A stretch of DNA of 64,000 nucleotides. Source: an uncultured Candidatus Saccharibacteria bacterium. GTDB taxonomy: Bacteria; Patescibacteriota; Minisyncoccia; Phycocordibacterales; UBA9973. Shown here one piece after another: positions 3,338 through 56,256 of the stretch. The position numbers and the translations under genes are program-made. How positions within the stretch are numbered: the first letter of the stretch is position 1; every line of letters begins with the position of its first letter. The notes beneath the pieces were generated by a model, which searched no databases, was not told the origin of the DNA, and saw only the letters and a list, made by a program, of their open reading frames with translations. The stretch spans positions 2,072-66,071 of the forward strand of contig CAZUZL010000005.1 in NCBI GenBank assembly GCA_964625065.1, written 5' to 3'.

Positions 3338-4234
3338 ATGTTTATCATTAAATACAAAAAATTCTTCATTTCACTTTCAGTACTACTTGTTGCTGGTTCT
3401 ATAGTTGCAATTAGTGCATTTGGTTTGCCACTAGGTATAGACTTCAAAGGTGGTGCATTAACTGAAGTTGCGTACACTACAGAACACCCAACCGTCGAAG
3501 TTCTATCTGCTGAAATAAAAACCTTAAACTTTGGCGAAGCAACATTGCAACCAACAGGCGACACTGGTTACTTTATTAAAACTCGTGCATTGTCAGAAAC
3601 AGAACGCGAACAGCTTTTAGCTACTATTAGTTCTGGTACAACAGGTACAGCGAGTTTGAAAAGTTACACATCTATTGGTCCGTCAGTAGGGCACGAACTT
3701 ACTCGTAAAATGATATTAGCAATTATATTTGTTGCACTGGCTATTATATTATTTATTGCATATGCATTCCGTAATGTTACACGTCCAGTATCTAGTTGGA
3801 AATATGGTTTTATTGCCATCGTTACACTTATACACGACATTATGATTCCGATCGGCGTGTTTGCTATCTTGGCCCGCAGTTATGGTGCCGAAGTAGACAC
3901 ACTGTTTGTGGTGGCTATATTAACTGTACTTGGTTTGTCTATATCAGACACTATTGTTGTGTTCGACCGTATCCGTGAAAACATTCGTGTTACTAAATAC
4001 GCAACATTTTCTGAAACAGTTGGCCATTCATTAAAGGAAGTTATAACACGTTCTATCAACACTTCTGCAACTGTTATTATGGTGTTGCTTGCGTTATTCT
4101 TCTTCGGTCCATCTACAACCCGCGTGTTTGCTCTTATGATGACAGCCGGTATGTTTTTCGGAGCATATTCATCTATATTCCTAGCGTCACCACTATTGGT
4201 CTATGTAGAACAATGGCAAAAAGGCAAGAAATAA
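3338..4234 (+). CDS. secF: Protein translocase subunit SecF
   Basis: GIDFKGGALTEV and the 6-TM SecF architecture. It follows secD immediately as a separate gene, not a fusion. Confidence 0.9.
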   Translation: MFIIKYKKFFISLSVLLVAGSIVAISAFGLPLGIDFKGGALTEVAYTTEHPTVEVLSAEIKTLNFGEATLQPTGDTGYFIKTRALSETEREQLLATISSGTTGTASLKSYTSIGPSVGHELTRKMILAIIFVALAIILFIAYAFRNVTRPVSSWKYGFIAIVTLIHDIMIPIGVFAILARSYGAEVDTLFVVAILTVLGLSISDTIVVFDRIRENIRVTKYATFSETVGHSLKEVITRSINTSATVIMVLLALFFFGPSTTRVFALMMTAGMFFGAYSSIFLASPLLVYVEQWQKGKK

Positions 4235-29926: not shown

Positions 29927-30036
29927 AGGGCATACATACATAGCGTCGGCTATAATCCGACTGGTGGCGGCCTAAAGTAGTATTATGAGTGCTACTGTAG
30001 ACAAATCTACTCTTAAGAAAAATATTTTAAAAAACT

Positions 30037-51546: not shown

Positions 51547-53226
51547 ATGACGTCTGCAGTTACCCAGATAAAGGAACGACTTGGTATTGTCGAAGTCATT
51601 TCAACGTATATTGCGGTTAACCAGGCGGGTAGACAGTTTCGTGCAAGGTGTCCTTTCCATTCAGAAAAAACAGCCTCGTTCTACATATCACCAGAAAGAA
51701 ATTCGTACCATTGTTTCGGTTGTAGTAAAGGTGGCGACATTTTTACATTCGTCGAAGATATGGAAGGTGTAACTTTCAAAGAAGCATTAAAAATTCTTGC
51801 TGACCGTGCAGGTGTAGTACTGGACGACTATGTACACACAGTAGACGACACAGCGGTACTGTATTCTATATTAGAAAAGTCTAAACAATATTTTGTTAGC
51901 CAAAATATAGAAGCTTCAAAAAAATATGTATCAGACCGAGGTATAACACAAAAAACTACTGAACATTTTCAAATAGGGTATGCCCCTAACGAATGGCGTA
52001 GTTTAGTTGAACACCTGTGTAAAAACGGTTTCAAAGATGCAGACATTGTTAGGTCTGGCATGGCCATAGAAACAGAACGTGGTATATACGACCGTTTCCG
52101 TGGGCGTGTAATGTTTCCGATAAACGACACACAGGGCAGGGCAGTTGGTTTCTCAGGGCGTATACTACCAGTGTACGATGTGCCTGGTAAAAGCGGGGAC
52201 AAACCAGCCAAATACATAAATTCTCCGGAAACAGATTTGTACCATAAATCTACAATACTGTATGGTTATGACAAAGCCAAAAACGCATTGCGCACCAGTG
52301 GGTATGCAATTGTGGTTGAAGGTCAAATGGACTTGGTTCTGTCGCATCAGGCTGGGTTTGAACAAACTTTAGCTGTATCAGGTACCGCATTAACTAATAC
52401 CCACCTTGATCTGATAGGTAGGTTTACAAAGAAAATTTTATTTTCTTTTGACGGCGACGAAGCTGGTATAAAAGCATTAAAACGCAGTGTAGAAGAAGCA
52501 CTAGCTAAAGACTTTGACATAAGGGTTGTAAAAGTTCCAGTAGGTAAAGACCCGGCAGATATTATTTCTACAGACCCCGAAGAATGGAAAAATATAGTAA
52601 GTCAGTCTACATCTATAATAGAATACTTGTTACTACACTATGCAAAAAAACATACAGATATTCGTGAATTCAGAAACATAGTAGACAAAGAAGTCTTGCC
52701 TTATGTTAGGTCTATAAACAAATCTATAGACCGTGCGCACTTTATAAACTTAGTTTCCAGAGCTGTAGATTTGCCCGACGCTGTTATAGCAAAAGCCGTA
52801 CAGGAAATAAGTTTAGCGCCCCGTGCTGTAGAAAACGACTTACCTAAAAAAGAAAACCTTTCTGCTGAAACCATACTGTTAGGTTTAATATCTTTAGAAA
52901 AAGAATCGTACCCATTACTAAACGGCGTTTCAATAGAAAAACTGTTTAGCCAGTATATGGACCTGTCAGTAGACGAATGGAAAATAACAATGGAATCTGT
53001 CGATGCGGGTTACGCAAGTTCAGTTGCAGAATATTTGTTGCTACAAACCGAAGACCACGCAATGCAGTTTGTATCTGACAATGTAATGAAGGTTGCAGAA
53101 AAAAGGTTGTTCCAAGCCCTGTCGCACTTAAAAAAACAAGGTTTGGGTACACCAGAGGAAATGCATTTGTTTACAGACCTGACTCGACGGGTCGACAATA
53201 TTAAAAAAGATCGTCATAATGTATAA
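51547..53226 (+). CDS. dnaG: DNA primase DnaG
   Basis: CHC2 zinc finger [11 protein letters not shown]...[11 protein letters not shown], the RNA-polymerase domain, and the TOPRIM motifs EGQMD and DGDEAG. Confidence 0.9.
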
Positions 53227-54598
53227 TATGAAATCAAAATCAACAAAAAAGATCGTAAAAAAACCAGCCCGACAAAGTCATTCTGGCGGGGTTGTTAAAA
53301 AACCTGTAAAAAAGCCAGCCCGACCGAGTCATTCTGGCGGGGTTGTTAAAAAAACAGCACCTAAAAAAGTTGTTAAAAAAACAGTTGCAAAAAAACCAGC
53401 CCGACCGAGTCATTCTGGCGGGGTTGTAAAAAAACAACCAGCTAAAAAAATAGCGCCTAAAAAACCTGTCCGAACTACTGGCGGAGTTGTTTCAAAATCT
53501 AATTCTAAAAAAACAAAAGCACAACTTACAACAGAACTGTTAGAAAAACAATCAAATATTTTAGTCGAAAAGGGTAGAAAGCGAGGTTTCATAACCTTCG
53601 ACGAAATACTTAAAACTTTTCCTGATATTGAAAACAATGTTCTGTTTTTAGACGAACTTTATGAAAAGCTTTCAACTGTAGGTGTCGACGTACTAGAAGG
53701 TGGTAACTTGCTAGATGTTGACGCTGAAGTAAAAGAAATAATTACCGGCAGACACCATGACCCGTCTTACGATTCTATACAAATATACCTTAAGGAAATA
53801 GGTCAATACCCGTTGATATCTTCTGCAGAAGAACGCAACCTAGCAAAACGCATCGAAGTGGGCGACAACGAAGCTAAAAATTTGTTGGCACGCGCAAACT
53901 TGCGTTTGGTTGTGTCTATTGCTAAAAAATACCAAAACCGCAGTGCAGACCTATCTTTACTTGACCTGATACAGGAAGGTAACATAGGTTTGTTCAAAGC
54001 CGTAGAAAAGTTCGACTGGCATAAAGGTTATAAATTCAGTACATATGCAACATGGTGGATACGCCAATCTATAACTCGTGCATTAGCCGACCAGTCTAGA
54101 ACAATACGTATACCTGTGCACATGGTTGAAACTATTTCTAAATACAAACAAGTTTACCGACGCCTTTCACAGGACCTAGGCCGCGAACCACTGGCCGAAG
54201 AAATAGCTACAGAAATGGGTGTTGAAGTTGAAAAAATTCATGTTATCGAACAAATCAGTCAAGAAACAACATCACTAGAAAAACCAATAGGTGACGACGA
54301 AGACAAATCTACACTAGGCGAATTTATTCCTGATGAAAAAATTCTACGCCCAGACCAAGACGCTTCACGCCGTATACTTTCTGACCAGATACACGAAGTT
54401 TTGGCAGAACTTTCACCGAAGGAACAAAAGATTCTAGAAATGCGTTATGGTTTACACGACGGTGTACAACATACATTAGAAGAAGTAGGTAAAGAATTTG
54501 GTGTTACTCGCGAACGTATTCGTCAGATCGAAGCCAAAGTCCACGACAAACTTCGAAGTAATGAAAAAATAATGCGCTTAAAAAATTATTTTGATTAA
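53219..54598 (+). CDS. rpoD: RNA polymerase sigma factor RpoD (sigma-70) with a Lys-rich N-terminal repeat region
   Basis: Regions 1.2 to 4 are present ([53 protein letters not shown]). The N-terminus has three copies of KKPAR(Q/P)SHSGGVVKK. Confidence 0.9.
53264..53423 (+). repeat. Three tandem copies of a GC-rich mini-element inside the 5' end of rpoD (ccagcccgac[a/c][a/g]agtcattctggcgggg at 53264-53291, 53315-53342 and 53396-53423)
   Basis: Near-identical 28-mers spaced 51 and 81 bp apart, in frame, each encoding KKPARxSHSGGVV. They are related to the pyrG and uvrD elements. Confidence 0.75.
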
Positions 54599-54610
54599 AA
54601 TACATAGAAC

Positions 54611-54651
54611 AAACAAATTCCCCACCAGTCAGACTGGTGGGGAATTTGTTT
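54611..54651. repeat. REP-like perfect palindrome, copy 1 (aaacaaattccccaccagtcagactggtggggaatttgttt)
   Basis: Perfect palindrome. Near-identical 31-bp cores occur at 55361-55391 and 56144-56174. Confidence 0.85.
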
Positions 54652-54668
54652 AGTGATATAATATTAAT

Positions 54669-55361
54669 ATGGGAACAAGAAAATTTCCACTTTGCGATAA
54701 TGAATATTTTCATTTATATAATCGTGGAAATAGCAAACAAAAGATATTTTTAGACGGTCAAGATTATGAGCATTTTATAAAGTGCATATTTGTTTGCAAT
54801 TCATATAAAAAGTATAAATTTAGAGACGATATTGTTGATCTCGGCATTGATGCTTTTGAGTTCGATAGAGCAGAGACAATCGTCTCTATAGGCGCATGGG
54901 TTTTAATGCCAAATCACTTTCATATCTACATTATAACGGCACATCAGTCAGATCGGTGGAAAGATTTAGAACGTAATAGAATTTCTGAATTTATGCGTAA
55001 AGTCTTAACTGCGTATAGTTTATATTTTAATAAAAAATATGAAAGAACCGGCGGTTTATTTGAAGGTGTATTTAAATCAATACACATTGGAAATGATAAT
55101 CAAGCAAAATATCTATTTTCTTATATACACTTAAATCCAATAAAGCTTATTCAAAAAGACTGGAAGGAAGTAGGAACAATAGATGTTAAAAAAGCACTAA
55201 AATTCTTAGAAGGTTATAAATGGAGTAGTTACATGGACTATAAGGGTATTATAAGGAAAGAAAATGCTATTTTAAACACAGAGTATTTTCCAAAATATTT
55301 TTCTGATATTAAAGATTTTGATAGGGAAATATTAAATTGGTTAGAATATAAAGAATTATAA
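54669..55361 (+). CDS. REP-associated tyrosine transposase (RAYT; IS200/IS605-like Y1 HUH transposase)
   Basis: HUH motif LMPNHFHIYI; catalytic Tyr region YLFSYIHLNPIK; YNRGN...IF; C-terminal WSSY. Flanked on both sides by the REP palindrome. Confidence 0.75.
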   Translation: MGTRKFPLCDNEYFHLYNRGNSKQKIFLDGQDYEHFIKCIFVCNSYKKYKFRDDIVDLGIDAFEFDRAETIVSIGAWVLMPNHFHIYIITAHQSDRWKDLERNRISEFMRKVLTAYSLYFNKKYERTGGLFEGVFKSIHIGNDNQAKYLFSYIHLNPIKLIQKDWKEVGTIDVKKALKFLEGYKWSSYMDYKGIIRKENAILNTEYFPKYFSDIKDFDREILNWLEYKEL

Positions 55362-55391
55362 ATTTCCCACCAGTCTGACTGGTGGGAAATT
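55361..55391. repeat. REP-like palindrome, copy 2 (aatttcccaccagtctgactggtgggaaatt)
   Basis: 31-bp palindrome between the RAYT and HNH genes. Confidence 0.85.
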
Positions 55392-55441
55392 GAAAAATAA
55401 AAATTGCTGCATATTTTAAAATAATATGATATGCTGCGACT

Positions 55442-56137
55442 GTGAAGAAAATTTTAGACGATATTCTAAGTTATAGAGAAATGTGTGATTCTGAGAAAAC
55501 CCAAACTATGCAACGTGGGATGAATTTTCGCATGAAACCAACATATTCTGTTATTTTGATGTCCCAAAGATCAAACGCCCCTTACTCAGATAAGGTTTAT
55601 AAAGATGGAGTAACTATTGAATACGAAGGTCATGATGTTTCAAGAAAATACTCAGAAAATCCAAAAGAACAAGATCAGCCTGATAAATTACCAAGCGGTA
55701 CTATAACACAAAATGGTTATTTTATAAAAGCTATTAATGAATATAAAGAAAATAAAAGCAAACCAGAATTAGTAAAAGTTTATGAAAAAGTATTTTCAGG
55801 GGTGTGGTCATTAAAAGGATATTTTGATTTGATAGACTATAAAATCATTCATGATGGAAAGAGAAATGTTTTTCGTTATATTTTAAAATTGTCTGACAGA
55901 AAAGAAAATTCTAATATGGGAGATATTAACATTGGACACACTAGATTAATTCCATCAGAGGTTAAAAGAGAAGTTTGGAAAAGGGATCAAGGAAAATGTG
56001 TTTTATGTGGTGATTCTAAAAACCTCCACTTCGATCATGACTTACCTTTTTCGAAGGGTGGTACAAGTCTTTCTTCAAATAATGTTAAATTGCTTTGCAT
56101 GAAGCATAATTTACAAAAATCGGATAATATCCAATAA
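55442..56137 (+). CDS. HNH endonuclease with an unassigned ~170-aa N-terminal domain (possibly a PUA/SRA-like modified-DNA reader; candidate modification-dependent restriction enzyme)
   Basis: C-terminal HNH motif CVLCGDSKNLHFDHDLPFSKGGTSLSSNNVKLLCMKHNLQKSD. The N-terminal domain was not recognised with certainty. Confidence 0.65.
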   Translation: MKKILDDILSYREMCDSEKTQTMQRGMNFRMKPTYSVILMSQRSNAPYSDKVYKDGVTIEYEGHDVSRKYSENPKEQDQPDKLPSGTITQNGYFIKAINEYKENKSKPELVKVYEKVFSGVWSLKGYFDLIDYKIIHDGKRNVFRYILKLSDRKENSNMGDINIGHTRLIPSEVKREVWKRDQGKCVLCGDSKNLHFDHDLPFSKGGTSLSSNNVKLLCMKHNLQKSDNIQ

Positions 56138-56143
56138 ATTATT

Positions 56144-56174
56144 AAATTTCCCACCAGTCAGACTGGTGGGAAAT
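56144..56174. repeat. REP-like palindrome, copy 3 (aatttcccaccagtcagactggtgggaaatt)
   Basis: Identical core to copy 1. Confidence 0.85.
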
Positions 56175-56256
56175 TCTATGTAAGGGGAGGCCGGTAGGGG
56201 GTATTTATTTTGTTCATTTTTGTGCATTGCAATATTTGTTATGGTATAATTTAGCT

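What the first reader, a model, noticed from the sequence alone, without database searches (positions are those of the whole stretch)
54611..56174. REP - RAYT - REP - HNH endonuclease - REP mini-island downstream of rpoD
Seen in sequence: three copies of a 31-bp perfect palindrome AATTTCCCACCAGTC(A/T)GACTGGTGGGAAATT lie at 54611-54651, 55361-55391 and 56144-56174. They bracket two AT-rich genes. The first gene (54669..55361) has the Y1 HUH transposase hallmarks LMPNHFHIYI (HuH) and YLFSYIHLNPIK (catalytic Tyr helix). That is the architecture of REP-associated tyrosine transposases, which are flanked by their cognate REP hairpins. The second gene (55442..56137) carries a clear C-terminal HNH nuclease motif, CVLCGDSKNLHFDHDLPFSKGG...LLCMKHN, fused to an unassigned ~170-aa N-terminal domain. 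By analogy with SRA/EVE/YTH-HNH type IV restriction enzymes this N-terminal domain might read modified bases; that is inference. A RAYT/REP system has, to my knowledge, rarely if ever been noted in CPR-like genomes. Here the REPs also serve as hairpin terminators between the genes. A half-site, gactggtggcgg, occurs at 29959-29970 on the edge of another AT-rich island. This hints that the REP family is dispersed and marks island boundaries.
Basis: partly seen in the sequence, partly recalled or inferred. Interest (0 to 1): 0.75.

Follow-up and report, generated by a model that had tools for sequence, protein, structure and literature searches.

The report
Hairpin-flanked transposase-like gene in CPR bacterium
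A single-strand-DNA transposase-like gene of a candidate-phyla-radiation bacterium is bracketed by copies of its own DNA hairpin. In its relatives the same hairpin also sits in-frame inside the gene, and here an unrelated methyl-DNA-sensing restriction nuclease gene has landed next to it.

Summary
Three strong palindromes (core CCCACCAGTC[A/T]GACTGGTGGG) lie at 54611-54651, 55361-55391 and 56145-56175.

ORF 54669-55361 is a Y1 HUH enzyme. Its best structural match is the E. coli REP-associated transposase (4ER8). ORF 55442-56137 is an SRA-HNH, TagI-like modification-dependent restriction nuclease.

In 80 related CPR loci, the same lineage-specific palindrome occupies three fixed places:
- just upstream of a leaderless promoter;
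- in-frame inside the gene, right after the HUH motif;
- at the stop codon.

The three copies evolve in concert while the encoded peptide changes (HQSDWW, HKSDLW, HMSDMW, PIPGIGE and others). In this window the internal copy (54938-54962, HQSDRW) has decayed and no longer folds.

The HNH gene is not part of the module. No homologue lies within 3 kb of the RAYT-like gene in any of the 80 loci.

The same palindrome also occurs elsewhere in CPR genomes at low copy number, including in-frame inside alaS, rnhB and a helicase gene. The half-site at 29959 is chance.

In-frame REPs in tnpA(REP) are published for subclass 2.4. This family differs: it has 2.1-like motifs, no GTAG tag, and is confined to CPR. 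I rate it a new variant of a known kind.

The parts
54611..54651 (.). Upstream cognate hairpin (copy 1). A 41-nt perfect palindrome centred on 54631. It lies between the rpoD stop codon and the RAYT promoter, in the -35/spacer position.
   Evidence: DNA fold -21.6 kcal/mol, z -8.4. Relatives carry an equivalent copy 12-40 nt before the ATG.
54654..54662 (+). Extended -10 box TGATATAAT, ending 6 nt before the ATG. It implies a leaderless RAYT mRNA.
   Evidence: Read directly from the sequence. A hexamer matching TATAAT at 5 of 6 positions or better ends 6-7 nt before the ATG in 56 of 67 related loci, against 0 in the control; a Shine-Dalgarno-like motif occurs in 1 of 67.
54669..55361 (+). RAYT-like Y1 HUH transposase gene (230 aa). 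The HUH motif is H83-F-H85 and the catalytic Tyr lies in YLFSYIHLNP.
   Evidence: Pfam Y1_Tnp 18.3 bits; NCBIfam REP_Tyr_transpos E 3.8e-12. Foldseek best hit 4ER8, E 1e-5. Invariant residues listed.
54938..54962 (+). Decayed relic of the in-frame internal hairpin, centred on 54950 and encoding A-HQSDRW-K. It lies in the loop between the HUH strand and the next helix.
   Evidence: Matches the flanking copies at 18 of 25 positions (read by eye; the script gives 15-16 of 21 for the core) and does not fold (-1.3 kcal/mol, z +0.45). Relatives carry a perfect palindrome at this position. The model places it in a low-confidence loop, residues 91-103.
55361..55391 (.). Downstream cognate hairpin (copy 2). 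Centred on 55376; it overlaps the stop codon of the RAYT gene.
   Evidence: In relatives the equivalent copy starts a median 3.5 nt after the stop codon and often overlaps it.
55405..55441 (+). Conserved promoter region of the HNH gene (GCTGCA, then 17-18 nt, then TGATATGCTGCA). The -10 box ends 6 nt before the GTG start.
   Evidence: The same motif is conserved upstream of HNH homologues in L090-L093.
55442..56137 (+). SRA-HNH nuclease gene (231 aa, GTG start). The SRA-like domain covers about residues 1-160 and the HNH domain about 165-231. It is a passenger gene, not part of the RAYT module.
56145..56175 (.). Extra copy of the cognate hairpin (copy 3), centred on 56160, 7 nt after the HNH stop codon.
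   Evidence: HNH homologues elsewhere have no such hairpin.

Best explanation
The locus is the CPR version of a REPtron.

Shown:
- It is a transposase-derived Y1 HUH single-strand-DNA nuclease gene together with its cognate DNA hairpin, and it is mostly vertically inherited. Copy number per genome could not be measured here.
- In the family the hairpin occupies three fixed places: over the -35/spacer region of a leaderless promoter, in-frame in the loop just after the HUH strand, and at the stop codon.
- The three copies stay identical to one another while the sequence drifts between lineages through compensatory changes.
- The hairpin is occasionally copied elsewhere, both between genes and in-frame within genes.

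Inferred:
- The hairpins are the enzyme's single-strand binding and cleavage substrates, as in E. coli TnpA(REP).
- They are kept alike by selection for recognition by one enzyme, by enzyme- or recombination-mediated conversion, or by both.
- The promoter-proximal copy insulates or represses the gene.
- The in-frame copy is a tolerated, and possibly regulatory, substrate copy.

In this window the internal copy has decayed, and a second 3' copy exists. An unrelated SRA-HNH type IV restriction gene, with its own promoter, sits between the two 3' copies.
For: Identity of the enzyme: HUH and Y...NP motifs are invariant. REP_Tyr_transpos matches all 28 homologues. The best fold match is 4ER8, followed by the IS608 and ISDra2 TnpA structures.

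Three-copy architecture: internal versus same-locus flanking copies have a median identity of 20/21, against 12/21 between loci. In 49 of 65 loci both flanking copies match at 17/21 or better.

The hairpin is constrained as nucleic acid:
- 85% Watson-Crick pairing over 12 stem positions in 68 distinct sequences, with 3-4 pair types at several positions. Shifted registers give 24-35%; column shuffles give 52% (maximum 55%).
- Codon choice in the loop follows the pairing: CAC 16/21 and GAC 20/21, against 23% for each elsewhere in the same genes (p 3e-6 and 2e-11).
- The hairpin centre falls on codon position 3 in 56 of 70 loci.

Co-divergence and inheritance: hairpin and protein divergence correlate (Mantel r 0.49, 0 of 999 permutations reach it). 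Four loci that share secD downstream carry four different hairpin variants, and other conserved synteny groups exist.

Promoter: leaderless geometry in 56 of 67 loci.

Mobility: orphan copies lie in-frame in rnhB, alaS and a helicase gene, and in terminator-like intergenic sites. L083 has 7 copies in 6.7 kb.

Published support: perfect stems are needed for TnpA(REP) cleavage (PMC8266576), and in-frame REPs occur in subclass 2.4 (PMC6006769).
Against: - No biochemistry exists for this family.
- The scores fall below the curated cut-offs of both Y1_Tnp and REP_Tyr_transpos.
- The hairpins lack the GT[AG]G guide tag.
- Copy number is low: 3 in this 64-kb window.
- Hairpin orientation, read from the centre base, is random among the three positions. 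That fits a symmetric double-stranded site as well as it fits a hairpin.
- The excess of G-T over A-C mismatches that sense-strand RNA folding would predict is absent.
- This window's gene has lost the internal hairpin yet remains intact, so that copy is dispensable at least here.
- The closest relatives are not syntenic with this window, so some relocation has occurred.
Confidence: 0.7

Rival explanations
1. The unit from hairpin through tnpA to hairpin (about 780 bp) is an autonomous IS200-like insertion sequence that is still transposing. The flanking palindromes would be its left and right ends, and the island (RAYT plus HNH) a recent insertion after rpoD.
For: Hairpins abut both gene ends, as in IS200. 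The unit is AT-rich compared with the host. No other locus has rpoD or dnaG next to the gene, and the closest relatives sit in other contexts. The upstream hairpin could act as an IS200-style read-through terminator.
Against: Synteny is conserved across diverged members, with secD, mraZ-rsmH and lipase-like groups. Hairpins and protein co-diverge in place. Only one of 80 loci shows a second, divergent copy. None occurs in viral contigs. The Tyr motif is Y...NP rather than the Y...Q of IS200. A conserved internal end-like hairpin would damage an insertion sequence.
Confidence: 0.12
2. The palindromes act as double-stranded DNA: two-fold symmetric operator or terminator sites bound by a dimeric regulator, possibly the C-terminal helical tail of the RAYT protein itself. 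They would not be single-strand hairpin substrates. The in-frame copy would then be an intragenic operator or roadblock.
For: The palindromes are perfect, and the orientation of the centre base is random. The upstream copy covers the -35/spacer region of the promoter. Subclass 2.1 tails are reported to resemble helix-turn-helix domains (PMC6006769). A DnaA-box-like motif lies next to many 3' copies.
Against: Y1 HUH enzymes bind single-stranded hairpins (4ER8 is the best fold match). Stem positions 4, 6 and 7 vary freely as long as pairing is kept, which is unusual for an operator. The same element spreads into unrelated genes in-frame, which is the behaviour of a mobile element. No helix-turn-helix family matches the tail.
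Confidence: 0.1
3. One reading: REP-RAYT-REP-HNH-REP is one functional mini-island, in which the RAYT mobilises the HNH gene as cargo between two REPs, or the two genes cooperate.
For: The HNH gene lies exactly between two inverted copies of the hairpin (centre T versus centre A). Both genes are AT-rich.
Against: No HNH homologue lies within 3 kb of 80 RAYT loci. The three distinct HNH contexts examined (four loci, L090-L093) contain no RAYT gene and no such hairpin. The HNH gene brings its own conserved promoter. Some relatives already have tandem 3' hairpins, for example L022, between which a gene could simply have inserted.
Confidence: 0.06

Closest known systems
REPtrons: TnpA(REP)/RAYT genes flanked by cognate REPs (E. 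coli YafM, PDB 4ER8; Nunvar 2010, Ton-Hoang 2012, Corneloup 2021)
   Same: A Y1 HUH enzyme with a Y...NP tyrosine motif. The gene is bracketed by its own palindromes, the synteny groups point to vertical inheritance, and REPs co-evolve with the enzyme. The best structural match is 4ER8.
   Different: There is no GT[AG]G tag at the hairpin foot. Copy number is very low. The palindromes are perfect with a 1-nt centre. The copies occupy fixed positions, including the promoter and the stop codon. Scores fall below the NCBIfam equivalog cut-off. The family occurs in CPR, where no publication describes it.
[quoted passage not shown] 2018, PMC6006769)
   Same: An in-frame REP lies in the same loop (beta3 to alphaC), in addition to the flanking REPs, and the reading frame is kept open.
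   Different: The protein signature differs (YIHLNP with an SS tail, against YIxNNP). There are no GTAG or 'double-foot' REPs. Here the insertion sits at one fixed site in nearly every member of a very large family and evolves in concert with the two flanking copies. The host group differs (CPR, against Cyanobacteria and Bacteroidetes).
TnpA(Y1) subclass 2.1 / RAYT Group 1 / TIRYT
   Same: The motifs NH[YF]H and Y[IV]HLNP, an SS-containing tail, and a length of about 230-240 aa.
   Different: Subclass 2.1 is reported to lack REPs and to have GGGGWSAS terminal inverted repeats and a DnaA_C-like helix-turn-helix tail. A Sporomusa plasmid homologue has no loop insert and no hairpins. The CPR family has three hairpins and no detectable helix-turn-helix family.
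Rickettsia palindromic elements and intragenic REPs (Ogata 2000; Di Nocera 2013, PMC3733652)
   Same: The same short palindrome is found inserted in-frame in housekeeping genes (alaS, rnhB and a helicase gene in other CPR genomes).
   Different: Here the element is tied to a RAYT-like gene that itself carries it, and copy numbers are far lower.
TagI / ScoMcrA-type SRA-HNH type IV restriction endonucleases
   Same: An N-terminal SRA-like fold followed by a C-terminal HNH domain with zinc-binding cysteines. The gene stands alone in variable genomic contexts.
   Different: Sequence identity is only 12-21%. No Pfam SAD_SRA hit passes threshold. Specificity for modified bases is untested. The protein is unusually conserved across CPR (75-87% identity).

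Membership tests
RAYT / TnpA(REP) (Y1 HUH) | HUH motif and a catalytic Tyr within Y-x-x-x-N-P | tested here: met
   NHFH at residues 82-85 and YIHLNP at 152-157; these are invariant in 28 homologues.
RAYT / TnpA(REP) (Y1 HUH) | Score above the curated cut-off of the family models | tested here: not met
   Pfam Y1_Tnp 18.3 bits against a cut-off of 23. NCBIfam REP_Tyr_transpos 46.3 bits against 80. The match is still significant (E 3.8e-12), and all 28 homologues hit the model.
RAYT / TnpA(REP) (Y1 HUH) | TnpA(REP)-like fold | tested here: met
   Foldseek best PDB hit is 4ER8 (E 1.1e-5, probability 1.00), followed by the IS608, ISDra2 and IS200 TnpA structures. The model has pLDDT 71.
RAYT / TnpA(REP) (Y1 HUH) | Gene flanked by its cognate palindromes (REPtron arrangement) | tested here: met
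   Window copies at 54611-54651 and 55361-55391. In relatives, 60 of 67 upstream and 52 of 68 downstream copies match the internal copy at 17/21 or better.
RAYT / TnpA(REP) (Y1 HUH) | GT[AG]G tetranucleotide at the 5' foot of the REP | tested here: not met
   Found at 4 of 112 flanking hairpins, and at none of the copies in the window.
RAYT / TnpA(REP) (Y1 HUH) | REP family dispersed through the genome | tested here: inconclusive
   The window has only 3 copies in 64 kb. The source genome is not in the scanned collection. Nomurabacteria SJ250 has at least 5 copies, 2 of them away from the gene. L083 has 7 copies in 6.7 kb.
RAYT / TnpA(REP) (Y1 HUH) | Cleavage and strand transfer on the single-stranded cognate hairpin | not testable with these tools
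   Requires biochemistry.
TnpA(Y1) subclass 2.4 | [quoted passage not shown] | tested here: met
   Met by the family at large. The window keeps only a decayed relic.
TnpA(Y1) subclass 2.4 | Y motif YIxNNP, a WQ motif, and a length of about 194 aa | tested here: not met
   The protein has YIHLNP, FE in place of WQ, and 230 aa (Table 1 of PMC6006769).
TnpA(Y1) subclass 2.1 (Group 1 / TIRYT) | NH[YF]H, Y[IV]HLNP, an SS tail motif, and a length of about 238 aa | tested here: met
   The protein has NHFH, YIHLNP, KWSSY and 230 aa.
TnpA(Y1) subclass 2.1 (Group 1 / TIRYT) | No REPs; flanking GGGGWSAS terminal inverted repeats; a DnaA_C-like helix-turn-helix tail | tested here: not met
   Hairpins are present. 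No helix-turn-helix family matches at E<1. A Sporomusa homologue of the 2.1 type lacks hairpins and the loop insert.
IS200/IS605 TnpA | Y...Q tyrosine motif, multiple identical copies per genome, and frequent association with tnpB | tested here: not met
   The tyrosine motif is Y...NP. There is no second copy in the window, and a second, divergent copy appears in only 1 of 80 loci. No tnpB is present.
SRA-HNH type IV restriction endonuclease (TagI-like) | N-terminal SRA (base-flipping reader) fold | tested here: met
SRA-HNH type IV restriction endonuclease (TagI-like) | C-terminal HNH nuclease motif with zinc-binding Cys ligands | tested here: met
   C186, C189, H196, D198, N214, C219 and N223 are invariant. 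All 37 of 37 homologues hit the HNH model.
SRA-HNH type IV restriction endonuclease (TagI-like) | Cleavage that depends on 5mC or 5hmC | not testable with these tools
   Requires enzyme assays.

The most novel reading that the evidence does not exclude
The in-frame hairpin is a functional cis-element rather than a tolerated passenger. A whole CPR-wide family of domesticated HUH enzymes would then carry its own DNA substrate inside its coding sequence and over its promoter. The gene would sense or limit its own product, by self-binding or by self-cleavage of the exposed non-template or lagging strand. Enzyme specificity and target would be forced to co-evolve at one locus. That would make it a self-addressed nuclease with a built-in record of its recognition code.
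Probability: 0.25. Interest if true: 0.85.

Novelty: new variant of a known kind. Interest (0 to 1): 0.62.

Why it matters
How RAYT enzymes recognise their REPs, why they persist, and how the two co-evolve are open questions in the field. This CPR family offers a natural series of well over 50 matched pairs of enzyme and hairpin. In each, three copies sit at fixed, orthologous positions and show clear compensatory changes, so specificity determinants can be read off by comparison and then tested with oligonucleotides.

The family also extends REPtron-like systems to the candidate phyla radiation. It shows that a subclass 2.1-like enzyme, from a group reported to have no REPs, can have them.

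It further shows that CPR proteins (AlaRS, RNase HII, a helicase) can carry in-frame palindrome insertions. That matters for annotating these reduced genomes and for modelling their proteins.

The SRA-HNH gene adds a very widespread putative type IV restriction enzyme to the sparse list of known CPR defence genes.

Tried and rejected
- Source genome. The contig that encodes P0001 could not be fetched, and the genome is not among the species representatives. No genome-wide count was therefore possible for this organism.
- Chance matches. The exact-core hits in Skermanella and Alicyclobacillus (L008, L009) have no RAYT nearby. They are probably chance: a 10-bp arm can recur in 596 Gb of sequence.
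- Known RNA families. Nothing reaches an Rfam gathering score.
- RNA-level function. The mismatch spectrum shows no excess of G-U on the sense strand, so I did not favour an mRNA structure.
- Sequence searches of solved structures. These were nearly blind: 4ER8 scores only E 0.66 for the RAYT profile, and the HNH profile hits only the HNH domain.
- Defence-system models. PADLOC gave only generic HNH-region hits.
- Viral contigs. No RAYT relatives were found, and only remote HNH-domain hits.
- Half-sites. The five other single-mismatch arm matches in the window, like the one at 29959, have no partner arm.
- IscB. The IscB match of ORF2 covers the HNH domain only, and there is no RuvC domain, so I rejected an IscB or IS605 reading.
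- A small error of mine. In some searches the window's internal site was centred one base off (the true centre is 54950). This affects one sequence out of about 70 and does not change the conclusions.
Full report
**1. The observation**

The core CCCACCAGTCWGACTGGTGGG occurs exactly three times in the 64-kb window, at 54621, 55366 and 56150. No match is expected by chance.

- Copy 1 is a 41-nt perfect palindrome at 54611-54651. It differs from the other two by one compensatory pair: AATTCCCC.../...GGGGAATT against AATTTCCC.../...GGGAAATT.
- Copy 2, at 55361-55391, overlaps the stop codon of the first gene.
- Copy 3 is at 56145-56175, one base to the right of the coordinates given.

As single-stranded DNA the three copies fold at -21.6, -14.9 and -14.8 kcal/mol, with z-scores of -7 to -8. 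Both ORFs and every quoted peptide motif are present. The island is AT-rich: GC is 0.285 at 55001-56000, against about 0.39 elsewhere.

**2. The first gene (54669-55361)**

This gene matches Pfam Y1_Tnp at 18.3 bits (cut-off 23) and NCBIfam REP_Tyr_transpos at E 3.8e-12, 46 bits (cut-off 80). All 28 aligned homologues hit the NCBIfam model, and 23 of 28 hit the Pfam model.

The HUH histidines and the tyrosine of YIHLNP are invariant. An AlphaFold model (pLDDT 71) finds the E. coli REP-associated transposase bound to a REP hairpin (4ER8) as its best PDB match (E 1e-5). The IS608, ISDra2 and IS200 transposases follow.

The family is very large and, among the hits listed, confined to CPR/Patescibacteria. 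The search returned 4,743 hits, of which the best 120 share 60-75% identity. Several are already labelled 'transposase' or 'RayT' by annotation pipelines.

By its motifs (NHFH, YIHLNP, an SS-containing tail, 230 aa) the protein resembles TnpA(Y1) subclass 2.1, also known as RAYT Group 1. That group is reported to have no REPs (PMC6006769).

**3.

In the Nomurabacteria SJ250 homologue (L004), the perfect 21-nt palindrome lies inside the coding sequence. It sits directly after the HUH motif and encodes SHQSDWWE. Further copies lie before the ATG and after the stop codon.

I fetched 80 related loci from metagenomes. Nearly all show the same three-copy layout. The palindrome itself differs from lineage to lineage. 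Examples are:
- CCCACCAGTCnGACTGGTGGG
- GCCATAAGTCnGACTTATGGC
- CCCACATGTCnGACATGTGGG
- CCCCTTCACCnGGTGAAGGGG
- TGCGGAAGcaaggCTTCCGCA
- CCCCTATACCnGGTATAGGGG
- CCAAGGGTnACCCTTGG

Three measures support the pattern.

*Concerted evolution.* Within a locus, the internal copy matches the upstream and downstream copies at a median of 20 of 21 positions. Between loci the median is 12 of 21. In 49 of 65 loci with both flanks available, both flanking copies match at 17 of 21 or better.

*Pairing.* Across 68 distinct internal sequences, 85% of cells over 12 stem positions are Watson-Crick pairs, and several positions show three or four pair types. Shifted registers give 24-35%. Column shuffles give 52%, with a maximum of 55%.

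*Nucleotide-level constraint.* The encoded peptide changes with the stem: HQSDWW, HKSDLW, HMSDMW, PSPGEGE, LRKQGFRK, PIPGIGE. The constraint is therefore on the nucleic acid and not on the protein.
- In the H-x-S-D-x-W group, His is CAC in 16 of 21 genes and Asp is GAC in 20 of 21. Each codon is used 23% of the time elsewhere in the same genes (p 3e-6 and 2e-11).
- The unpaired centre falls on codon position 3 in 56 of 70 loci, mostly in Ser TCN or Pro CCN. It can therefore flip without changing the protein.
- In the model, the peptide is a low-confidence loop (residues 91-103) between the HUH strand and the following helix.

**4. Inheritance**

Hairpin divergence tracks protein divergence even with the loop masked out (Mantel r 0.49; 0 of 999 permutations reach it).

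Groups of loci keep the same neighbours:
- secD downstream (L010, L012, L014, L015);
- mraZ-rsmH downstream;
- a lipase-like gene downstream.

The four secD loci carry four different hairpin variants. The three copies have therefore changed together in place. This fits a domesticated, vertically inherited gene better than an active insertion sequence. Some relocation has nevertheless occurred, because no other locus has rpoD or dnaG as a neighbour. No relatives occur in viral contigs.

Non-CPR relatives share only 22-30% identity. A Sporomusa plasmid homologue has no loop insert and no hairpins, only short inverted repeats of the terminal-repeat type.

**5. Promoter geometry**

A hexamer matching TATAAT at 5 of 6 positions or better ends 6-7 nt before the ATG in 56 of 67 loci, against 0 in an intragenic control. 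A Shine-Dalgarno-like motif is present in only 1 of 67. In the window this element is TGATATAAT at 54654-54662.

The mRNA is therefore probably leaderless, and the upstream hairpin lies over the -35/spacer region. The downstream copy starts a median 3.5 nt after the stop codon and often overlaps it. No GT[AG]G tag lies at the hairpin foot: it occurs at 4 of 112 hairpins.

The orientation of the three copies, read from the centre base, is random.

On the gene strand, the window's hairpins lack a T-tract. The scan calls them terminator-like only on the minus strand. A shorter version of the copy 1 stem, followed by AATTTGTTT, could still terminate rpoD transcription; that is inference.

**6. Mobility of the hairpin**

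A scan of 185,579 species genomes for the window's core found it in seven CPR loci. Apart from the RAYT locus itself (L004), the sites are:
- after a gene and followed by a T-run (L003);
- between convergent genes (L006, L007);
- in-frame inside RNase HII (L005);
- in-frame inside alanyl-tRNA synthetase, as a tandem pair (L002);
- in-frame inside a helicase gene (L001).

One relative, L083, has 7 copies in 6.7 kb.

The element is therefore REP-like and mobile, but at low copy number. In this window no further copy exists. The 29959 half-site and five similar 10-mers have no partner arm, matching the full element at only 13-18 of 31 positions.

**7. State of this window**

The internal site, 54938-54962 (CAT CAG TCA GAT CGG TGG, HQSDRW), matches the flanking copies at 18 of 25 positions. 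It has two synonymous changes that break pairing, and it does not fold (-1.3 kcal/mol, z +0.45). It is a relic.

The gene is otherwise intact. A minority of relatives (L011, L026, L027) show the same decay.

**8. The second gene (55442-56137)**

The C-terminal domain is an HNH nuclease. All 37 homologues hit the HNH model, and the Cys, His and Asn ligands are invariant.

The family is very widespread, with more than 7,800 hits; the best 120 share 72-87% identity. It is not linked to the RAYT gene:
- no homologue lies in any of the 80 RAYT loci;
- three distinct HNH contexts contain no RAYT gene and no such hairpins.

The gene brings its own conserved promoter, GCTGCA-N17-18-TGATATGCTGCA, ending 6 nt before the GTG start. 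The simplest reading, which is inference, is that the gene lies between two tandem 3' hairpins. Such tandem pairs occur in relatives, for example L022.

**9. Mechanism**

The following are shown: the identity of the enzyme class, the three-copy architecture, constraint at the nucleotide level, concerted and co-divergent evolution, the leaderless promoter geometry, and low-copy dispersal that includes in-frame sites.

The following are inferred, by analogy with TnpA(REP) (PDB 4ER8; PMC8266576, which reports that stem mismatches abolish cleavage):
- the hairpins are the enzyme's single-strand substrates;
- the copies are kept alike by selection for recognition, by conversion, or by both;
- the promoter copy insulates or represses the gene;
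- the in-frame copy is a tolerated, and possibly regulatory, substrate copy.

A symmetric double-stranded operator remains a live alternative.

**10. Comparison with what is known, and verdict**

In-frame REPs inside tnpA(REP), in this same loop, are published for subclass 2.4 of Cyanobacteria and Bacteroidetes (PMC6006769). The phenomenon is therefore not categorically new.

This family differs in five respects:
- its protein signature is 2.1-like, and that group is reported to have no REPs;
- it has no GTAG tag;
- the three positions are fixed, and the pattern is nearly universal across the family;
- the promoter is leaderless;
- the host group is CPR.

I found no paper that links RAYTs with Patescibacteria.

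My verdict is a new variant of a known kind. It is of real interest to people who work on REP/RAYT systems. In this particular window, however, it is represented by a partly decayed example, with an ordinary restriction gene parked beside it.

Noticed in passing
L017, L029, L035, L037, L039, L043, L055, L062, L064, L070, L072, L076, L084, L088 (0-50 nt after the 3' hairpin); L044, L047, L054 (before the 5' hairpin): A DnaA-box-like motif, AGTT[A/T]T[C/G]CAC[A/T] (TTATCCACA or TTTTCCACA), lies in the plus orientation right next to the hairpins in roughly a fifth to a third of RAYT loci. The background rate is 0.3 per kb. It is absent next to the window's copies. Subclass 2.1 tails are reported to resemble the DnaA C-terminal helix-turn-helix. 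I could not tell whether the box belongs to the module or to the neighbouring genes.
   Followed up: partly
L010, L026, L037, L044, L045, L063, L064, L066, L082, L083, L084 (just 5' of the hairpins); L050 (3' side): Partial direct repeats of one hairpin arm (10-12 nt, up to three in a row in L037) sit immediately beside complete hairpins. They could be footprints of slippage, or of cleavage and rejoining at the hairpin.
   Followed up: no
L002 5513-7321 (-), L001 1-561 (-), L005 4081-4746 (+): The window's palindrome is inserted in-frame in alanyl-tRNA synthetase (tandem pair, ...GGDHQSDLVGTPTSPTGGDVS...), in a helicase gene (...ESPVGLVGNPTSPTGG...) and in RNase HII (...FPPVGLVGKK...) of other CPR genomes.
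   Followed up: partly
window 55405-55444; L090-L093 just upstream of position 4001: Upstream of the SRA-HNH gene there is a conserved pair of GCTGCA repeats. One overlaps an extended -10 box (TGATATGCT) that ends 6 nt before a conserved GTG start, which suggests a leaderless GTG-initiated mRNA or a regulator binding site.
   Followed up: no
L044 and L041: In L044 the downstream hairpin is of a different lineage type (TTGCGGAAGCAAGGCTTCCGCAA) from the upstream and internal copies (CCCTGAAGACCGTCTTCGGGG). In L041 the two flanking copies match each other but not the internal copy (13 of 21). These look like hairpin replacement events.
   Followed up: no
window 53219-53560 (N-terminus of the rpoD-like ORF 53219-54598): The sigma-70-like protein begins with three copies of a basic repeat, KKPAR(Q/P)SHSGGVVKK, ahead of the conserved sigma regions.
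   Followed up: no
L008 (Skermanella aerolata) and L009 (Alicyclobacillus pomorum): The 21-nt core matches exactly in two non-CPR genomes, with no RAYT nearby. This is probably chance, although Skermanella plasmids do encode distant RAYT-like proteins.
   Followed up: partly
L091 5174-5542: One SRA-HNH homologue lies two genes away from a Vsr (very-short-patch repair) gene. Vsr usually accompanies a Dcm-type cytosine methyltransferase, which is an odd neighbour for a putative 5mC-dependent nuclease.
   Followed up: no
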